From Escherichia phage ph0011, in sequence record OP557969.1: a stretch of DNA of 64,000 bases; one strand, written 5' to 3'. Each line of letters opens with the position of its first letter. Positions within the stretch are counted from its first letter, which is position 1. The notes beneath the pieces were generated by a model that was not told the DNA's origin, ran no database searches, and was given only the letters and a program-made list of their open reading frames with translations. Of this stretch, positions 2,454 through 58,313 are shown piece by piece. Position numbers and translations under genes: made by a program.

Positions 2454-3068
2454 ATGACTACATCTGAAAAGTACTGGTGGATTATGGGCCATCCTAAATT
2501 CATCAACGGAGATATGGTTCCCCCAAGGATTGATATCGAACCACATGATGTGTGTCCAATCACAAACCGCATTGAATCATTTAAAGCTCTGAATACAAAG
2601 ACACAATTTTGGGTAGAATTCATCTCACCTATGTACGTTGAGCAAGATGATGAATGGGTACAAGCACATGATTATGAGTTAGATTGCGGTGGTGATACTT
2701 ATGATGAGGCAATTGATGCACTATACAAAAATGTACTAAACACTTATGGTGATTACACCCAACAAGAAGCAGACGATACGTTTAATAAGATCCATGCAGC
2801 CATTTCTACATCATCAATTTACAATTCTGCAAAAACAGTTTGGGAAGAACGTCACGGGTGGAGTTCATCTGTAATTGATGCAGAAGCCAAAGAAACAATT
2901 CTCGAAGACATAAAAAATATAAAAAGTACAATAGAAGCCTTGCGTGAATTTATAAAGTCTTGTACAATAGAACAACAGAAAGAGGCAAAGATGCATTTGG
3001 AGAGTGAAGAATGTAAACTTTGGGTTCTAGAGAAATCTATTGAAAAGGGTATAGACTTAGACTTATGA
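2454..3068 (+). CDS. hypothetical protein (start moved to first ATG after GGAG)
   Basis: ORF track frame; ttggagaaaatcATG gives GGAG-7nt-ATG. Confidence 0.45.
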   Translation: MTTSEKYWWIMGHPKFINGDMVPPRIDIEPHDVCPITNRIESFKALNTKTQFWVEFISPMYVEQDDEWVQAHDYELDCGGDTYDEAIDALYKNVLNTYGDYTQQEADDTFNKIHAAISTSSIYNSAKTVWEERHGWSSSVIDAEAKETILEDIKNIKSTIEALREFIKSCTIEQQKEAKMHLESEECKLWVLEKSIEKGIDLDL

Positions 3069-3433
3069 ATCGTAAACTTGAGAAACTAATTGAAGAACTA
3101 CGCCGGATGCCACCCATCGAGCAAGTGGGGAGTTACAAACGTTATCGTGTGATTGCTCGTGCACTAGATAAGAAAGGTCGTGTATTGGCAACACGTACTA
3201 ATTCTTACACACATACTCACCCAGTACAGAAAGGTTTTGCAATCCGTGCTGGAAGACCACAAGGTGAGTTTCTTCATGCTGAAATTTCATGTTTATTAGC
3301 TTCACGTGCTGAAGTTCATACTTTGTTGATTGCACGGATAAGTAAAGATGGTATTCCAGTTCCAGCCAAGCCTTGTGAGATTTGTACGTTGGCAATTATG
3401 GAATATGGGGTCAAAGAAATTATTCACACATGA
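3065..3433 (+). CDS. cytidine/deoxycytidylate deaminase-like zinc-binding protein
   Basis: HAE ... PCEIC motif pair (H-x-E and PCxxC zinc ligands of the CDA fold) about 33 residues apart. Confidence 0.45.
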   Translation: MNRKLEKLIEELRRMPPIEQVGSYKRYRVIARALDKKGRVLATRTNSYTHTHPVQKGFAIRAGRPQGEFLHAEISCLLASRAEVHTLLIARISKDGIPVPAKPCEICTLAIMEYGVKEIIHT

Positions 3434-53093: not shown

Positions 53094-53750
53094 ATGGCAG
53101 CTATTCGTCATGTTGGTGTAATGCGTAATACAGGTTCTCGTGTTTTTGTTGTTTGGCGTTCACTACCAGATGATCCTGAACACTGCCTTATTGTTTATCG
53201 CGATTCACTTCCTGAAGCATATGTTCATGCAGTGACTGATATTGTGATGGGGCATGGTCAATCAAATATTGATTTATGGGAAGTGATGCATAAAATCGGT
53301 TATCTAGATGGTCGTAAAATGTTAGATGTTTTACATAACATGCAATATCTACGCCGTGTACGTACTTGTGATATCGATATGCACACTGGTGGTAATAATA
53401 AAATCTCACTTGATGTGCTTAATAAAGCATTGGATGAAAATCAAGCTAAAATTCAAGAAGATGGTAAAGTAAAAGACTTTAACCCATTTGACCCACAGGA
53501 AGCTGACACTAAAGTTGAAGAAGCTACTATTGTTGAAAAACTCATTTCTGATGCACAAAAATATGAAAAACTAGCTCAAGAATATTATGAGCGTGCATAC
53601 AATCTAGAGCCATCATTGCGTCCACAAGCACAAGTGGTTGAGCATAAAAAAGATAGCAAAACACTTTATCTGGAAATCCCAGAAGGTATTTCACAAACCA
53701 AGGCTATTGAGAAAGTAAAACAACTGTTTGCAGCACGAAAAGCAAAATAA
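53094..53750 (+). CDS. hypothetical protein
   Basis: ORF track. Confidence 0.45.
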   Translation: MAAIRHVGVMRNTGSRVFVVWRSLPDDPEHCLIVYRDSLPEAYVHAVTDIVMGHGQSNIDLWEVMHKIGYLDGRKMLDVLHNMQYLRRVRTCDIDMHTGGNNKISLDVLNKALDENQAKIQEDGKVKDFNPFDPQEADTKVEEATIVEKLISDAQKYEKLAQEYYERAYNLEPSLRPQAQVVEHKKDSKTLYLEIPEGISQTKAIEKVKQLFAARKAK

Positions 53751-53753
53751 ATT

Positions 53754-54347
53754 ATGACAAAGATTGAATTAGATGAAGCGATTAAAGGTTTATCTAATGT
53801 GTGTTTTAGTGGCGGGGCAGCAGGTGCTGACCGCCTTTTTTCTATCTATGCAAAAGATAATGGATTTGAAGTTGTTAATTTTTCATTTAAAGGTCATGAG
53901 CATAGTGTAGATGAAAATACTATATTAGAAATACCATCCAATATTCTATCTGATATTTCTATATTAAAGCAACTAAACATTGCATGTTACTCGTTGCAGA
54001 GAAAAGTACCAAAGCCTGGTTCTTATGTTTATAACTTACTTGCAAGGAATAGTTATCAAATACTTAATACAGAAAGAATATATTGTATTGCAAATATTAC
54101 ATCACCAACTAAGGTGAGTGGTGGTACTGCATGGGCAGTGCAGATGTACATGGATTCAGTTGAAAATCCTGAAATTTATTGTTATGATATGAATTCACGT
54201 TCTGTATTTTATTTTGACACAGTACTGAAAGAGTTTACTGAAACATTCTCAATACCAGAACCACACGGTAACTGGACTGGGATTGGTTCACGTAATGCTA
54301 CACAAAAACACATGGAACATTTTATTACATTTTTCAAGGAAGTATAA
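53754..54347 (+). CDS. Rossmann-like nucleotide-binding protein with GGxxGxD motif (SLOG/DprA/LOG-like; tentative)
   Basis: FSGGAAGADRLF near N-terminus resembles the glycine-rich loop of SLOG-superfamily domains. Confidence 0.35.
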   Translation: MTKIELDEAIKGLSNVCFSGGAAGADRLFSIYAKDNGFEVVNFSFKGHEHSVDENTILEIPSNILSDISILKQLNIACYSLQRKVPKPGSYVYNLLARNSYQILNTERIYCIANITSPTKVSGGTAWAVQMYMDSVENPEIYCYDMNSRSVFYFDTVLKEFTETFSIPEPHGNWTGIGSRNATQKHMEHFITFFKEV

Positions 54348-55987
54348 TGAAACAACTACAAGAACTATATCAAAAAATTCTAGATGAAGGCGTGGAAAGT
54401 GTTGACCGTACTGGTGTTGGTACAACCAAACTTATCGGTCAACAAATGCGTTTCGACCTTAACGATGGTTTTCCAGCAGTGACGACAAAACGTCTAGCAT
54501 GGAAAACAATGGTTGCTGAACTTTTATTTTTTATTAAAGGTATTCCAGACCGTCGAGTGATGCAGGAATTTTTACATGGTGAATTTAATGAAGATAAGAA
54601 CGATATTTGGAAAGGTAATTGTGTTGATATGAAAAATAAAAATCCATTAAAATTTAATGGATACAATTTAGGTAATATGTACCCAGTTTACTGGAGACGA
54701 ATGTATAAACCTGTTCCTAAAACAGTTAAAGTTAAACGTAAAAAAGACTTTGATTTTGAATATATTGAAAAATATAAATCATTTTATGATGATGTAGAAA
54801 TTGAAAAACATCATAAATCGGGTCAAACATTCATTGATATTAGGGGAGATGAGTTAGAATATCTTGGATTCAATGGACAGTATGAAAATAAACGACATTA
54901 TTTGAAATATAAGAACACGGGAACTATAATCAAACTCAATACATCTGAAATTGATATTAAACATAATAAACTTAATAGTGGTGAAGATTATTATAAAAAA
55001 AATTCAGTCGGTGGATATTTGGGTGCACCACGTGAAGTTCTTTCAAATGATCCATTGAACTCAAAAGTACAGAGCCTATGGTATAATATGCTTTCTCGTG
55101 TAAACACCTCTCCCAACTATAATAATATTAGTGTTAGCCCAAGGTGGTATAATTATTATAACTTCCTAACTGACATTCGTACTATACCACTGTTTTTTGA
55201 ATGGTTGGATGATCCAACATATTATGAATTAGATAAAGATTATTTTGGTTCATCTGTTTATTCAAGAAATACATGTACATTTTTACCCAAACATATCAAT
55301 CAAAAATTAATAAGAAAACGCAATGACTGTGCATTGGAAGTTGATGGAATACTTTATTATTCATTTACATGTTTTTATAAATCAATTTATGGTGGGAAAA
55401 CACAACCAAAAGATCCATTTACTTTTTTAGAAAATAACGGTCATACTTATATTATTCACGAAGAGACAGATGAATATGTATACCGTCCACAATTGTTTAT
55501 TGATCAATTAGAAACTGTTATTGAAAATATTAAACATGTCACCTTGAATGAAAATCATCCGGCTGGACGTAGATTGATTATGGATTCTTGGAATCCATCA
55601 TGGGAGGACGATTCAGTTCTGGGAATATGTCACCCATTTGTTCAATTCTTTGTAGTGAATGGAAAGCTGTCATGTGAGTTTTATATGCGTTCATCTGACA
55701 CATTTCTTGGATTACCACTGAATATATCATCATATGCATTATTGACGCACATGATTGCACAAATTACAGGTCTAGAAGTAGGAGAGCTAATTTACACTGC
55801 TGGTGATTGTCACATTTATAAAAATCACATTGAACAAGTAAAAGAACAACTACAACGAAAACCACGTGCATTACCTGAATTATGGATTGATCCTACTATT
55901 ACTGATATTGAAGATTTCACAATGGATTCTTTTAAATTGATTAATTACGATCCAATGCCAACAATTAAAGCACCGATGGCTGTATAA
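54347..55987 (+). CDS. td: thymidylate synthase (ThyA/Td) with about 260-aa in-frame internal insertion
   Basis: N-terminal DRTGVGT ... GFPAVTTKRLAWK and C-terminal CHPFVQFFV ... FLGLPLNISSYALLTHMIA ... IKAPMAV match ThyA/T4 Td; 546 aa versus about 265-290 aa for ordinary ThyA. Confidence 0.88.
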   Translation: MKQLQELYQKILDEGVESVDRTGVGTTKLIGQQMRFDLNDGFPAVTTKRLAWKTMVAELLFFIKGIPDRRVMQEFLHGEFNEDKNDIWKGNCVDMKNKNPLKFNGYNLGNMYPVYWRRMYKPVPKTVKVKRKKDFDFEYIEKYKSFYDDVEIEKHHKSGQTFIDIRGDELEYLGFNGQYENKRHYLKYKNTGTIIKLNTSEIDIKHNKLNSGEDYYKKNSVGGYLGAPREVLSNDPLNSKVQSLWYNMLSRVNTSPNYNNISVSPRWYNYYNFLTDIRTIPLFFEWLDDPTYYELDKDYFGSSVYSRNTCTFLPKHINQKLIRKRNDCALEVDGILYYSFTCFYKSIYGGKTQPKDPFTFLENNGHTYIIHEETDEYVYRPQLFIDQLETVIENIKHVTLNENHPAGRRLIMDSWNPSWEDDSVLGICHPFVQFFVVNGKLSCEFYMRSSDTFLGLPLNISSYALLTHMIAQITGLEVGELIYTAGDCHIYKNHIEQVKEQLQRKPRALPELWIDPTITDIEDFTMDSFKLINYDPMPTIKAPMAV

Positions 55988-55990
55988 ACG

Positions 55991-56020
55991 AAAAGGGAGA
56001 ACATATGTTCTCCCTTTTTT
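55991..56020. terminator. bidirectional intrinsic terminator at the convergence point
   Basis: aaaa-gggagaaca-ta-tgttctccc-tttttt: perfect palindromic stem flanked by A-run and T-run. Confidence 0.8.
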
Positions 56021-56021
56021 A

Positions 56022-58313
56022 TTATCTAATTGTTACCAATGTTCTTCCGTCGAAACGTACATCAGGAGTTGAAGGTATACTAAACACCACGTTAGTGCCG
56101 TTAAACGTCACGCTATCGACCTCAACACGAGTATATACACCAGGGCTAATCTGTTCCTGTATCTCTGCTGTAACGATGTTTGAGGCTGTTACTGTAAGGG
56201 TGTATGAATCACCACTTAATACCCATGATGAAATAGTAAATGCGTCTGTCCTAACTGAACCTGAACCAATAGGAACCCATTGCCCTTTTACCTTTTGCAT
56301 AGAGGTTCGTTCGGATGTAGAGTATGCAATCATACCATCGACACCCACTGAGTTATCAATGCTTGCTAGTACTGGCAACTGAATACCATATCTATTAAAA
56401 CGTGTACGGATAGTTCCATTATCATAGATACTTACATCAGCATAATTACCCATAGAAAGTTTCAAATCCGCTCCATCCAATGTCATTGAACTTTGATTTG
56501 TATTACTTTCTAGTGTGAGTACACCGTTAGCTAATAAATTGATATTTTTAAATTTATTACTATTTCCTTTAAAAGTTGTATTAGCATTAAAAGTACTTGC
56601 ACCGTTAACTACAATAGTATTTTCTGCTGTGTCGCCTAATATGGTATTACCATTCAAAGTGGTTTCACCATCTACTACAATATTGGATTCGAAAGTACTA
56701 TTACCATTTACTACAAGATTGGATTTAAAAGTTCCATCACCATCTACGTCTACAGTAGAATGGAAAGTACTCTTACCATTAACCACAATAGTATTTTCTG
56801 CGGTATCACCCAATATGGTATTACTATGAACAGTCAAATTACCACTGGTGGTAACATTACTAGCTAGTGTATCACCATTCAATGTACTTGTTCCATCTAC
56901 TACAATATTGGATTTGAAAGTACTTTTACCATTAACCACAATAGTATTTTCTGGGGTTTCACCCAATGTTGTATTACCATGAACATTCAAATTACCACTA
57001 GCAGTAATATTACTAGCTAATGTATCACCAACCAATGTACTAGTACCATCTACTACAATATTACCATGAAAAGCACTTTCACCATTTTTGAATTCAACTT
57101 GTTCTTTATTCATTGAACTAAATGAAATGATATTACTACTTGCACTTATTCCAACATTAGTATTAGTTGGATTATCGAATCTCAGAACTGGCGTTGACGC
57201 AGGTGATGATGTTGATTGATATAATGTCAATGTCGAATTGGTAATTCTAATACGTTCAGTTCCAGAAGTACTGAATCCAATAGCATCATCAGCAGGATGA
57301 AAAATACCAGTATTCGTGTCTGACCATTTTTCAGGGTCATTACCTGGGTTGCTTACTGGGTCGTATGGGCTATTGTTAAATGCAATTGCTGGTGCGGTAG
57401 CACTACCATAGGTCACACCAAATCTACCACCTCCTACTGTACCATCGTCGTACATGGAATCACCAGTCCTACGTAAGCATTCAATTACAACGTTGTCGAT
57501 TGATGTTTGAACGGTTCCTGCATTCGTTCTAAATGGACGATTATTTGCAATCATGATAGTATTATCATATAATACTGAAGCTGCTGAAATACTAGTTCTT
57601 GATTGACGAAGGCGAATGTTTTTATCTTCAGTGATAATGATCCAATCACCATCTGATAGTGCTGTTTGGTTCATTGGTACACCGGATGCAAACGGTTTAG
57701 TTAAATCTTCATCAGTTGCTAAGTTTACTAGCCCACTATGACCAGTACTGGGAATGGCGGTAGATACAATTCTCGCAAAAGCATATGTTACGAGTTTAGC
57801 ACCAGAAATATTTGGATTAGAATCAACATAATATAAAATTTCTACCCAATCACCCTGACCAGTTGGGTTAGTTGGAGTGAATGTCACTGTACTTGTTGTT
57901 GGTTTATTAGCTTCAAAGTGTGCTTGTGCTGCATCTATAATACCACGTACAACATAATAATCACCACTAAGTGATGCTGTAGGTGCAGGTAGTGGACTTT
58001 GTGCCAAAGGTGGGTCTATATCATCAGGGATTGGATTATACGTACCAACAAATTGTAAACCACTAGTTACTGAATCTGGTAACTGTGATGTAAGAAGTTT
58101 GCCGTTAGCATCTAAGTTTGCAAAACGTCTATATGCCATCGAGCCATCTTCAAAATCCAGAACACCCTCGAATGATTTCCATTCTTTATTGTATCTAATC
58201 ATCCCTGATCTTATTACGTCAGCGGTTTCTTTTGATGGTGCTTTTGGTAACTCTAAAAAAGATTTACTATCAATAATTACACCACCATCACCTCTAATTC
58301 GATTTATACTCAT
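56022..58313 (-). CDS. putative tail fibre / tailspike-like protein with tandem ~37-aa beta-rich repeats
   Basis: 763 aa; repeats NTIVVNGKSTF.SNIVVDGTSTL.GDTLASN.T.SGNL.VH.NT.LGDTAENTIVVNG; GAGGA SD before ATG at 58313. Confidence 0.55.
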   Translation of the reverse strand: MSINRIRGDGGVIIDSKSFLELPKAPSKETADVIRSGMIRYNKEWKSFEGVLDFEDGSMAYRRFANLDANGKLLTSQLPDSVTSGLQFVGTYNPIPDDIDPPLAQSPLPAPTASLSGDYYVVRGIIDAAQAHFEANKPTTSTVTFTPTNPTGQGDWVEILYYVDSNPNISGAKLVTYAFARIVSTAIPSTGHSGLVNLATDEDLTKPFASGVPMNQTALSDGDWIIITEDKNIRLRQSRTSISAASVLYDNTIMIANNRPFRTNAGTVQTSIDNVVIECLRRTGDSMYDDGTVGGGRFGVTYGSATAPAIAFNNSPYDPVSNPGNDPEKWSDTNTGIFHPADDAIGFSTSGTERIRITNSTLTLYQSTSSPASTPVLRFDNPTNTNVGISASSNIISFSSMNKEQVEFKNGESAFHGNIVVDGTSTLVGDTLASNITASGNLNVHGNTTLGETPENTIVVNGKSTFKSNIVVDGTSTLNGDTLASNVTTSGNLTVHSNTILGDTAENTIVVNGKSTFHSTVDVDGDGTFKSNLVVNGNSTFESNIVVDGETTLNGNTILGDTAENTIVVNGASTFNANTTFKGNSNKFKNINLLANGVLTLESNTNQSSMTLDGADLKLSMGNYADVSIYDNGTIRTRFNRYGIQLPVLASIDNSVGVDGMIAYSTSERTSMQKVKGQWVPIGSGSVRTDAFTISSWVLSGDSYTLTVTASNIVTAEIQEQISPGVYTRVEVDSVTFNGTNVVFSIPSTPDVRFDGRTLVTIR
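56560..57060 (-). repeat. tandem in-frame nucleotide repeats (about 111-nt units) inside fibre gene
   Basis: recurring blocks accacaatagtattttctg ... atggtattac visible on + strand text. Confidence 0.55.

What the first reader, a model, noticed from the sequence alone, without database searches (positions are those of the whole stretch)
54707..55498. Thymidylate synthase carries a ~260-aa in-frame insertion with a homing-endonuclease-like DNA-binding motif
The td ORF is one uninterrupted 546-codon frame. Its ends align with ThyA/T4 Td, but between the WRRMY and IDQLETVIEN segments (a short surface loop in ordinary ThyA) sits about 260 aa of unrelated sequence. That insert contains SLWYNMLSRVNTSPNYNNISVSPRWYNYYNFLTD, which resembles the W-x-N-M-x-x-R ... 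P-x-Y ... W ... F module I recall from phage mobile-nuclease families. T4 td is known to carry a group I intron, but here there is no stop codon and no frame change, so this is not an ordinary intron plus ORF. It could be a domain insertion, a degenerate intein-like element, or an in-frame fusion of a mobile endonuclease remnant.
Basis: partly seen in the sequence, partly recalled or inferred. Interest (0 to 1): 0.7.

Follow-up and report, generated by a model that had tools for sequence, protein, structure and literature searches.

The report
Endonuclease-like module embedded in-frame in thymidylate synthase
A jumbo E. coli phage makes its thymidylate synthase with a complete, conserved homing-endonuclease-like module built into a surface loop. 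The module appears to move between phage td genes without any intron or intein, which has not been described for this kind of selfish element.

Summary
The td ORF (54347-55987, +) is one 546-codon frame. Residues 121-384 (nt 54707-55498) interrupt an otherwise intact, catalytically complete ThyA at the variable loop between WR and IDQ.

The insert is not an intron: Rfam finds none, and coding constraint runs up to both junctions. It is not an intein: it has no splice-junction residues, and the model shows a beta-stalk rather than a Hint fold.

It is a full-length homolog of a phage protein family (PHROG label "HNH endonuclease") found in classic homing contexts:
- next to a group I intron that splits the terminase gene of T7-like phages;
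- between nrdB and trx in a Bacillus phage.

Insert-bearing td alleles occur sporadically in three phage groups, while near-identical relatives lack the insert. Each filled allele sits in a mosaic tract of foreign td sequence, which looks like co-conversion. The insert is under purifying selection (dN/dS 0.16). 71 of the top 150 distant hits are thymidylate synthases (a few truncated), nearly all interrupted at this same site.

My best reading is a splicing-free, in-frame homing element displayed on Td.

The main caveat is that nuclease chemistry is unproven. No HNH profile matches, and the canonical His is a conserved Lys (motif D-K-D...N).

The parts
54347..55987 (+). td (thymidylate synthase) ORF, 546 codons plus stop, containing the insert
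   Evidence: ORF list. Pfam PF00303 E 1.8e-78 in two stretches. AF2 model pLDDT 93.9, pTM 0.91. TS core TM-score 0.93 to E. coli TS.
54347..54706 (+). N-terminal TS segment (aa 1-120), ending in ...GNMYPVYWRRMY
   Evidence: Aligns to E. coli ThyA residues 1-~100. R21, E58, W80 and Y94 equivalents are conserved.
54707..55498 (+). In-frame insert (aa 121-384): homing-endonuclease-like module
   Evidence: PHROG HNH-endonuclease families E 2e-16. Full-length homology to free-standing 178-249-aa phage proteins. GC 0.25-0.30 versus 0.33-0.41 in the flanks.
54701..54736 (+). N-side strand of a two-stranded beta stalk (aa 119-130) that leads out of the TS core
   Evidence: AF2 secondary structure E119-130, pLDDT ~94-96.
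54827..54940 (+). Small beta-barrel domain (aa 161-198; conserved T-G, D, G-G-Y-L-G follows)
55031..55210 (+). Helical W-x-x-M-x-x-R ... W ...
   Evidence: W245 and W267 are invariant in 109 family members; M and R are >=90% conserved. 65% identical to P0158, like the TS core.
55223..55309 (+). Beta-beta-alpha element with the family signature L-D-K-D (aa 295-298, nt 55229-55240) ... Y305 S306 .. T309 C310 . F312 ... N318. This is the candidate active site.
55331..55459 (+). C-terminal beta-beta-alpha tail of the insert (aa 329-371), positionally equivalent to the NUMOD-like DNA-binding module of relatives
   Evidence: AF2 elements. 16 of 109 family members hit Pfam I-HmuI_NUMOD-like and 3 hit NUMOD1. 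The window copy itself gives no Pfam hit.
55475..55501 (+). C-side strand of the beta stalk (aa 377-385, ...VYRPQLFI), returning to the TS core. R380 is nearly invariant among TS-inserted copies.
   Evidence: AF2 E377-385. R380 is >=90% conserved in 46 TS fusions.
55499..55984 (+). C-terminal TS segment (aa 385-546) with R126/R127, C146, H147, R166, S167, D169, N177, H207 and Y209 equivalents
   Evidence: Invariant and near-invariant columns.
54500..55790 (+). Foreign (co-converted) tract: the insert plus ~200 bp of upstream and ~290 bp of downstream td sequence that differ from the resident Asteriusvirus td
   Evidence: Sliding identity to PBECO4 is ~95% outside this tract and ~40-60% inside it. 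The flanking TS sequence inside the tract resembles P0158/P0281-type TS.
55990..56019 (+). Strong hairpin terminator (13-bp stem) between td and the convergent tail-fibre-like gene
   Evidence: Terminator scan. The weak Rfam sRNA hits at 55931-56062 are this hairpin.

Best explanation
The insert is a member of a phage homing-endonuclease-type protein family that has settled in-frame in a permissive surface loop of thymidylate synthase. It is translated as part of Td and never removed.

Shown:
- The TS core is complete and folds normally.
- The insert is a separately folded multi-domain module: a beta-barrel, a W..M..R helical domain, a beta-beta-alpha element with an invariant D-K-D...N signature, and a NUMOD-like tail. 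It is carried on a two-stranded beta stalk.
- Homologs occur as intron-associated and free-standing genes in classic homing positions.
- Insert-bearing td alleles are sporadic among near-identical phages in three groups (two named genera and one Bastillevirinae group), and each is embedded in a mosaic tract of foreign td sequence.
- The insert evolves under purifying selection.
- Shortened copies with an eroded signature exist in other lineages.

Inferred:
- During mixed infection the Td-borne module binds and cuts (or nicks) insert-less td alleles, probably downstream of the insertion point. Repair from the insert-bearing allele then copies the insert together with flanking td sequence, as in homing with co-conversion.
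- The host pays little cost because the loop tolerates large insertions. No splicing element is therefore needed.
- The Td homodimer may supply the dimerisation needed to turn two single active sites into a double-strand break. This last point is speculative.
For: Architecture:
- Continuous ORF.
- AF2 pLDDT 93.9, pTM 0.91, with stalk strands 119-130 and 377-385.
- TS core TM 0.93 to E. coli TS.
- TS catalytic residues are conserved in 46 fusions.

Family:
- PHROG hits E 2e-16.
- Alignment over nearly the whole insert with 178-249-aa free-standing proteins.
- In T7-like phages those proteins lie beside a group I intron that splits the terminase large-subunit gene. Rfam Intron_gpI scores 44.7 bits, E 8e-9, in L009 and also hits L008.
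- In Bacillus phage 015DV004 the homolog lies between nrdB and thioredoxin.
- NUMOD-type DNA-binding domains occur in 19 of 109 members.

Mobility:
- Of 37 Asteriusvirus-type records only UE-S1, besides the window, has an insert.
- In Alcyoneusvirus only KP13-7 and phiKp_21 have it.
- In Bastillevirinae only 015DV002 has it.
- The window is ~95% identical to PBECO4 outside ~54500-55790 and ~50% identical inside.
- The UE-S1 tract is 85-97% identical to Klebsiella phage KP13-7, while its flanks are 45-80% identical.
- The Bacillus filled allele is 100% identical to the empty allele up to the junction. It then has an 810-bp insert and ~160 bp of diverged 3' td.
- dS of the insert is 0.54 versus 1.1-1.7 in the td ends, and dN/dS is 0.16.

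Conservation:
- The signature is conserved equally in TS-inserted and free-standing copies.
- TS-inserted copies cluster together.
- Eroded short copies are P0281 and P0289.
- 71 of the top 150 representative hits are thymidylate synthases (a few truncated), and nearly all are interrupted at the same site.
Against: - Nuclease activity is not shown, and the catalytic fold assignment is weak.
- No Pfam HNH family matches any of 109 members.
- hhalign against an HNH_3 alignment gives ~1% probability.
- The position of the canonical general-base His is an invariant Lys.
- The window copy differs from the consensus R-C-Y (it has R-V-N), sits on a long branch, and shows no Pfam-detectable NUMOD domain.
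- Mosaic tracts could also arise by ordinary recombination between divergent td alleles.
- Within the hits examined, the flanking TS subtype always comes with an insert. This is also compatible with an old, stable 'long TS' lineage.
Confidence: 0.6

Rival explanations
1. Domesticated domain. The module was captured once by an old phage TS lineage and now serves the phage as a DNA-binding or nuclease domain. Possible roles are tethering dTMP synthesis to DNA, cutting host or competitor-phage DNA, or regulating td. On this view it moves between phages only by ordinary homologous recombination of td alleles.
For: - TS-inserted copies form one cluster.
- They carry conserved stalk residues such as R380.
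- The model has high pTM (0.91), which implies a fixed interface with TS.
- Purifying selection, dN/dS 0.16.
- The architecture is widespread: 71 of 150 hits.
- The linked flanking TS subtype always carries an insert in the sample.
- The canonical His is absent.
Against: - Presence is sporadic among near-identical genomes in three phage groups, with conversion tracts centred on the insert.
- Relatives occupy intron-associated and free-standing homing positions.
- Eroded copies exist, which fits a selfish invasion-and-decay cycle better than an indispensable function.
Confidence: 0.22
2. Inactive relic. The window's copy is a dead endonuclease gene that persists only because the loop tolerates it and because a precise in-frame deletion is unlikely.
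For: - The window copy deviates at R-C-Y, lacks a Pfam-detectable NUMOD domain, has low GC and sits on a long branch.
- Clearly eroded copies exist in close TS relatives (P0281).
Against: - All signature residues (D296, K297, D298, Y305, S306, T309, C310, F312, N318) are retained.
- The W..M..R and beta-beta-alpha segments are 65-66% identical to P0158, as conserved as the TS core at 60-73%.
- The AF2 model of the insert is confident.
Confidence: 0.12
3. A spliced element, either an intron at the RNA level or an intein at the protein level, so that the mature Td is ~33 kDa.
For: td genes are classic intron hosts (T4, Bacillus phage beta22), and inteins are in-frame insertions. This rests on general knowledge only.
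Against: - No group I intron or other Rfam match in 53500-56500 at E<=10.
- The ORF is continuous in every lineage, and protein-level conservation and purifying selection reach both junctions.
- The junctions are ...WRRMY|KPVPK and ...RPQLF|IDQL. There is no Cys/Ser at the insert start and no His-Asn plus Cys/Ser/Thr at the end.
- AF2 shows a beta stalk and non-Hint domains.
Confidence: 0.02

Closest known systems
Free-standing homing endonuclease genes that split essential phage genes ('genes-in-pieces': Aeh1 nrdA/mobE; T4 gene 39/60 with mobA; PMC2988022, Friedrich et al. 2007)
   Same: An endonuclease gene sits inside a nucleotide-metabolism gene with no self-splicing element. The host enzyme stays functional. 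Spread is with co-conversion of flanking sequence.
   Different: In those cases the host gene is broken into two polypeptides and the endonuclease is a separate protein. Here one continuous polypeptide carries the module as an internal domain.
Inteins with nested homing-endonuclease domains
   Same: An in-frame insertion is translated with the host protein, carries an endonuclease-type module, and has a sporadic distribution.
   Different: There is no Hint fold and no splice-junction residues. The insert is predicted to stay in the mature protein on a beta stalk.
td/thyA group I introns with GIY-YIG endonucleases (T4 I-TevI, B. mojavensis I-BmoI, Bacillus phage beta22/Bobb; PMC4528723)
   Same: The same host gene. 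It illustrates that td is a favoured target of homing elements.
   Different: A different insertion site (about 65 codons further downstream, from my own knowledge), RNA splicing, and an unrelated nuclease family.
L. casei-type thymidylate synthase 'small domain' (~50-aa insertion between WR and IDQ)
   Same: The same permissive site. The insert-less Asteriusvirus, Alcyoneusvirus and Bacillus-phage alleles vary in length at this site, carrying about 40 extra residues in the first two.
   Different: That segment is a short TS-specific elaboration. This insert is 264 aa, multi-domain, and homologous to endonuclease-type proteins.
I-HmuI-type HNH homing endonucleases (N-terminal nuclease plus NUMOD-like C-terminal DNA-binding module)
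   Same: The overall modular layout. I-HmuI_NUMOD-like domains occur in 16 of 109 family members. The beta-beta-alpha element has an Asp at the end of strand 1 and an Asn in the helix.
   Different: No HNH profile match, and Lys in place of the catalytic His.
In-frame LAGLIDADG insertions in mitochondrial rps3 of Ophiostoma (recalled from memory, Sethuraman et al. 2009; not checked here)
   Same: A homing endonuclease ORF fused in-frame directly into a protein-coding gene, without its own intron.
   Different: That is a terminal fusion with duplication of the displaced coding end, in organelles, with a different nuclease family.

Membership tests
Thymidylate synthase ThyA (PF00303) | Profile match over the whole domain | tested here: met
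   PF00303 E 1.8e-78, in two stretches that together span the profile.
Thymidylate synthase ThyA (PF00303) | Catalytic and substrate-binding residues (E. coli R21, E58, Y94, R126/R127, C146, H147, R166, S167, D169, N177, H207, Y209) | tested here: met
   All are aligned and conserved in the window protein and across 46 insert-bearing TS.
Thymidylate synthase ThyA (PF00303) | TS fold | tested here: met
   The AF2 model matches E. coli TS with target-normalised TM-score 0.93.
HNH / His-Me finger endonucleases | Match to an HNH sequence profile | tested here: not met
   No Pfam HNH family hit in the window insert or in any of 109 family members. hhalign versus a 120-sequence HNH_3 alignment gives ~1% probability. 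The 'HNH' label comes only from PHROG annotations.
HNH / His-Me finger endonucleases | Catalytic His at the end of strand 1 of the beta-beta-alpha motif | tested here: not met
   That position is Lys (D296-K297-D298), invariant in 66/66 free-standing and 41/43 TS-inserted copies.
HNH / His-Me finger endonucleases | Beta-beta-alpha-metal fold with a metal-ligand Asn/His in the helix | tested here: inconclusive
Homing endonuclease genes (functional class) | Sporadic presence or absence at one site among close relatives | tested here: met
   Asteriusvirus, Alcyoneusvirus, Bastillevirinae.
Homing endonuclease genes (functional class) | Co-conversion of flanking host-gene sequence | tested here: met
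   Mosaic tracts around the insert in the window, UE-S1 and 015DV002. Insert dS is lower than td-end dS.
Homing endonuclease genes (functional class) | Relatives encoded in or next to self-splicing introns, or free-standing between conserved genes | tested here: met
   A group I intron lies beside the homolog in split terminase genes. The homolog lies between nrdB and trx.
Homing endonuclease genes (functional class) | Site-specific cleavage of the insert-less allele and biased inheritance | not testable with these tools
   This needs biochemistry and phage crosses.
Inteins | Cys/Ser at the intein N-terminus, His-Asn at the C-terminus followed by Cys/Ser/Thr, and a Hint fold | tested here: not met
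   Junctions are MY|KPVP and QLF|IDQ. No Pfam Hint/intein hit. The model shows a beta stalk, a barrel and helical domains.
Group I (or other catalogued) introns | Ribozyme core detectable, and the ORF terminated inside the intron | tested here: not met
   No intron family at E<=10 in 53500-56500. The same search finds introns in L008 and L009. The ORF has no stop.

The most novel reading that the evidence does not exclude
Homing endonucleases may have a third way of living inside essential genes, besides introns/inteins and intergenic free-standing copies. In this mode the whole endonuclease is a permanent in-frame domain in a permissive loop of the host enzyme. It is expressed with that enzyme and possibly dimerised by it. 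It spreads by gene conversion among phage td genes across Gram-negative and Gram-positive hosts. Its catalytic beta-beta-alpha element uses a D-K-D...N site with no histidine.
Probability: 0.45. Interest if true: 0.85.

Novelty: new variant of a known kind. Interest (0 to 1): 0.72.

Why it matters
Homing endonuclease genes are thought to survive inside essential genes only by using a self-splicing intron or intein, or by splitting the gene into pieces.

A widespread, conserved, splicing-free in-frame version would change how such elements are searched for. These genes are currently annotated as plain 'thymidylate synthase', 'hypothetical protein' or 'HNH endonuclease'.

It would also:
- give a natural example of a large domain graft that leaves an enzyme functional;
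- define an uncharacterised DNA-targeting family with an unusual D-K-D...N signature;
- explain local mosaicism in td of jumbo phages.

It is directly testable with phage crosses and one purified protein.

Tried and rejected
1. Group I intron: an Rfam E-value search of 53500-56500 found only weak sRNA hits on the terminator hairpin.
2. Intein: no junction residues and no Hint fold.
3. Pfam and NCBIfam on the insert and on free-standing homologs gave nothing for the core.
4. The word-indexed protein search with the insert found nothing. The exhaustive representative search was needed.
5. A PDB sequence-profile search returned only noise, glyoxalase at E 0.3.
6. Foldseek against the PDB with the insert model found nothing at E<0.2. 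The first fold search, on the full-length model, returned only TS structures.
7. hhalign of the family against an HNH_3 alignment built from fPS-9 g045 homologs showed no relationship.
8. Paralogs in the window: an HMM of the family hits only td.
9. The search for related loci in viral contigs with the window insert returned no confirmed relative.
11. Target or immunity signature: all five filled alleles I aligned lack Pro before the catalytic Cys. In the wider set, 22 of 41 insert-bearing TS that could be scored keep P-P-C-H, so this is not a general signature and I dropped it.
12. Internal promoters: sigma-70-like hits are not above the shuffled expectation.
13. Five literature searches found no description of a TS with this insert.

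Full report
**The observation**

The window encodes one uninterrupted 546-codon ORF at 54347-55987 on the + strand. Pfam recognises thymidylate synthase in two stretches, the second being residues 382-546 against profile positions 106-266. I aligned it with E. coli ThyA and with the 309-aa Td of Escherichia phage PBECO4. The quoted W-x-x-M-x-x-R motif is at aa 243-276.

The window belongs to an Asteriusvirus-type jumbo phage. The flanks are about 95% identical to PBECO4 and 121Q relatives. The exact protein is on record as WAE77159.1 of Escherichia phage ph0011, annotated 'hypothetical protein'.

**What it is not**

An Rfam E-value search of 53500-56500 finds no intron. The same kind of search does find group I introns in two comparison loci. 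The junctions (MY|KPVP and QLF|IDQ) lack the nucleophile and His-Asn residues of inteins. The structure model contains no Hint-like domain.

**Structure**

I ran AlphaFold2 with an alignment of 46 insert-bearing TS. The model has pLDDT 93.9 and pTM 0.91. The TS core superposes on E. coli TS with TM 0.93, and every catalytic residue is conserved.

The insert leaves and re-enters the core through a two-stranded beta stalk (aa 119-130 and 377-385). It consists of:
- a small beta-barrel;
- a helical domain carrying W245..M248..R251 and W267;
- a beta-beta-alpha element with L-D-K-D (295-298), Y305-S306, T309-C310, F312 and N318;
- a beta-beta-alpha tail.

**What the insert is related to**

Pfam and NCBIfam are silent on the insert. 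PHROG families annotated 'HNH endonuclease' match it (phrog_2081 E 2.2e-16, phrog_953 E 1.1e-13).

A tblastn search of phage genomes and an exhaustive phmmer search (853 hits at E<=1e-3) show two kinds of relatives.

The first kind is free-standing proteins of about 170-260 aa that align over nearly the whole insert. These sit in classic homing-endonuclease positions:
- In T7-like phages (Yersinia fPS-9, Salmonella CHRF_10027) the homolog lies beside a group I intron that splits the terminase large-subunit gene. Rfam Intron_gpI scores 44.7 bits, E 8e-9, just under the gathering score of 50.
- In Bacillus phage 015DV004 it lies between nrdB and thioredoxin.
- In Acinetobacter phage Ab3 it lies next to a DNA polymerase subunit gene.
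- Sixteen of 109 family members carry an I-HmuI_NUMOD-like domain, three carry NUMOD1 and one carries AP2.

The second kind is thymidylate synthases: 71 of the best 150 representatives. A few are truncated, and nearly all the rest are interrupted at the same position, E. coli residues ~100-110. They include Td of:
- Escherichia phage UE-S1;
- Klebsiella phages KP13-7 and phiKp_21;
- Bacillus phage 015DV002;
- Vibrio phages D69, D148 and D181, where the gene is annotated 'HNH endonuclease'.

In a distance tree of the core, the TS-inserted copies cluster together. All 43 have a TS-inserted copy as nearest neighbour. This suggests one lineage of the family specialised on td.

**Evidence for mobility**

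Three independent filled-versus-empty comparisons exist.

1. *Asteriusvirus.* Only the window type and UE-S1 carry inserts among 37 matching records, and the two inserts are only about 30% identical to each other. Against PBECO4, the window is ~95% identical up to ~54500 and again from ~55790. Between those points it is ~40-60% identical. The foreign tract therefore includes ~200 bp of 5' and ~290 bp of 3' td sequence. That flanking TS sequence resembles P0158 and P0281, the nearest insert-bearing TS.

2. *UE-S1.* Its foreign tract is 85-97% identical to Klebsiella phage KP13-7 (Alcyoneusvirus), while its flanks are only 45-80% identical to that phage. Within Alcyoneusvirus, RaK2, K64-1 and Muenster lack the insert. 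Between UE-S1 and KP13-7 the insert has dS 0.54, against 1.1-1.7 for the td ends, and dN/dS 0.16. This indicates recent lateral transfer and purifying selection.

3. *Bacillus phage 015DV002.* It is 100% identical to its insert-less siblings 000TH008 and 015DV004 right up to the junction. It then has an exact 810-bp (270-codon) insertion, followed by ~160 bp of td at only 57-67% identity before identity returns.

A 3' tract is present in every case, while the 5' tract varies from 0 to 200 bp. This is what one expects if the initiating break lies downstream of the insertion point. That is an inference.

**State of the window's copy**

It keeps all signature residues. These are as strictly conserved in TS-inserted copies as in free-standing ones: D-K-D in 41-42 of 43 versus 66 of 66. 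Its W..M..R and beta-beta-alpha segments are 65-66% identical to P0158, as conserved as the TS core at 60-73%.

It does deviate at the near-invariant R-C-Y (it has R-V-N). Its barrel and tail are more divergent.

Other lineages hold shortened inserts with an eroded signature. P0281 is 441 aa with D-C-T, and P0289 is 418 aa with D-K-N and H-S. This fits an invasion-and-decay cycle.

**Limits**

The label 'HNH' is not established.
- No HNH profile matches any member.
- hhalign against an HNH_3 alignment is negative.
- The PDB holds no relative by sequence or by Foldseek.
- The canonical His is a conserved Lys.

Cleavage activity, the target site, and biased inheritance all remain inferences. A domesticated DNA-binding role spread by ordinary recombination is the main rival. 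An inert relic is a lesser rival for this particular copy.

**Comparison with what is known, and novelty**

The nearest known situations are:
- free-standing endonuclease genes that split phage genes into pieces (Aeh1 nrdA/mobE; PMC2988022);
- inteins with endonuclease domains;
- the td group I introns with GIY-YIG enzymes (PMC4528723).

This case differs from all three. The module stays in one polypeptide, with no splicing machinery, at the site where L. casei-type TS carries its small domain.

Five full-text searches found no description of it. I rate it a new variant of a known kind, with interest 0.72.

Noticed in passing
window 55990-56019 (and Rfam hits 55931-56062): A 13-bp-stem hairpin followed by a T-run lies between td and the convergent 763-aa gene. 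The weak Rfam sraA, MicX and MicC hits there are most likely this bidirectional terminator, not sRNAs.
   Followed up: partly
window 56022-58313 (-): A 763-aa ORF with internally repeated segments (…NTILGDTAENTIVVNGKSTF… several times). It is annotated in one relative as long tail fibre proximal subunit. Long antisense ORFs on the + strand (56005-56382, 56515-56829) look like artefacts of the repeats.
   Followed up: no
window 54204-54260 (DprA-like gene 53754-54347): A short patch where identity to PBECO4 and UE-S1 drops to 0.72-0.82 inside an otherwise 95-98% identical gene. It may be a small separate recombination patch upstream of td.
   Followed up: no
proteins P0015, P0017, P0022, P0026, P0032, P0047, P0071, P0110, P0130: Some insert-bearing TS have a second gap of ~35-55 aa in the match to E. 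coli ThyA near residue ~155, just after the catalytic Cys region. This would be a second insertion of unknown nature.
   Followed up: no
Bacillus phages KKP_4047/4048/4050 and TimeGriffin (hits H113-H116): td matches span 1183 bp instead of 885 bp and are annotated as two thymidylate synthase CDS. This is probably a ~300-bp intron or other interruption at a different td site.
   Followed up: no
L003 2501-3428 (Escherichia phage CMSTMSU): The insert-less td is annotated as two overlapping CDS (2501-2962 and 2940-3428). This is likely a frameshift or sequencing error in that record.
   Followed up: no
protein P0010 (264 aa): An ORF that begins and ends with stalk-like residues (…YRPINPIEELVELY) but has no TS domains, and that clusters with TS-inserted copies. 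It may be an insert called as a separate ORF in a td that has been split into pieces. Its genomic context could not be fetched.
   Followed up: partly
L007 1497-2930 (Vibrio phages D69/D148/D181): A 477-aa gene annotated 'HNH endonuclease' is in fact a thymidylate synthase (PF00303 E 1.9e-47) carrying a shorter (~195 aa) version of the insert without the barrel domain.
   Followed up: partly
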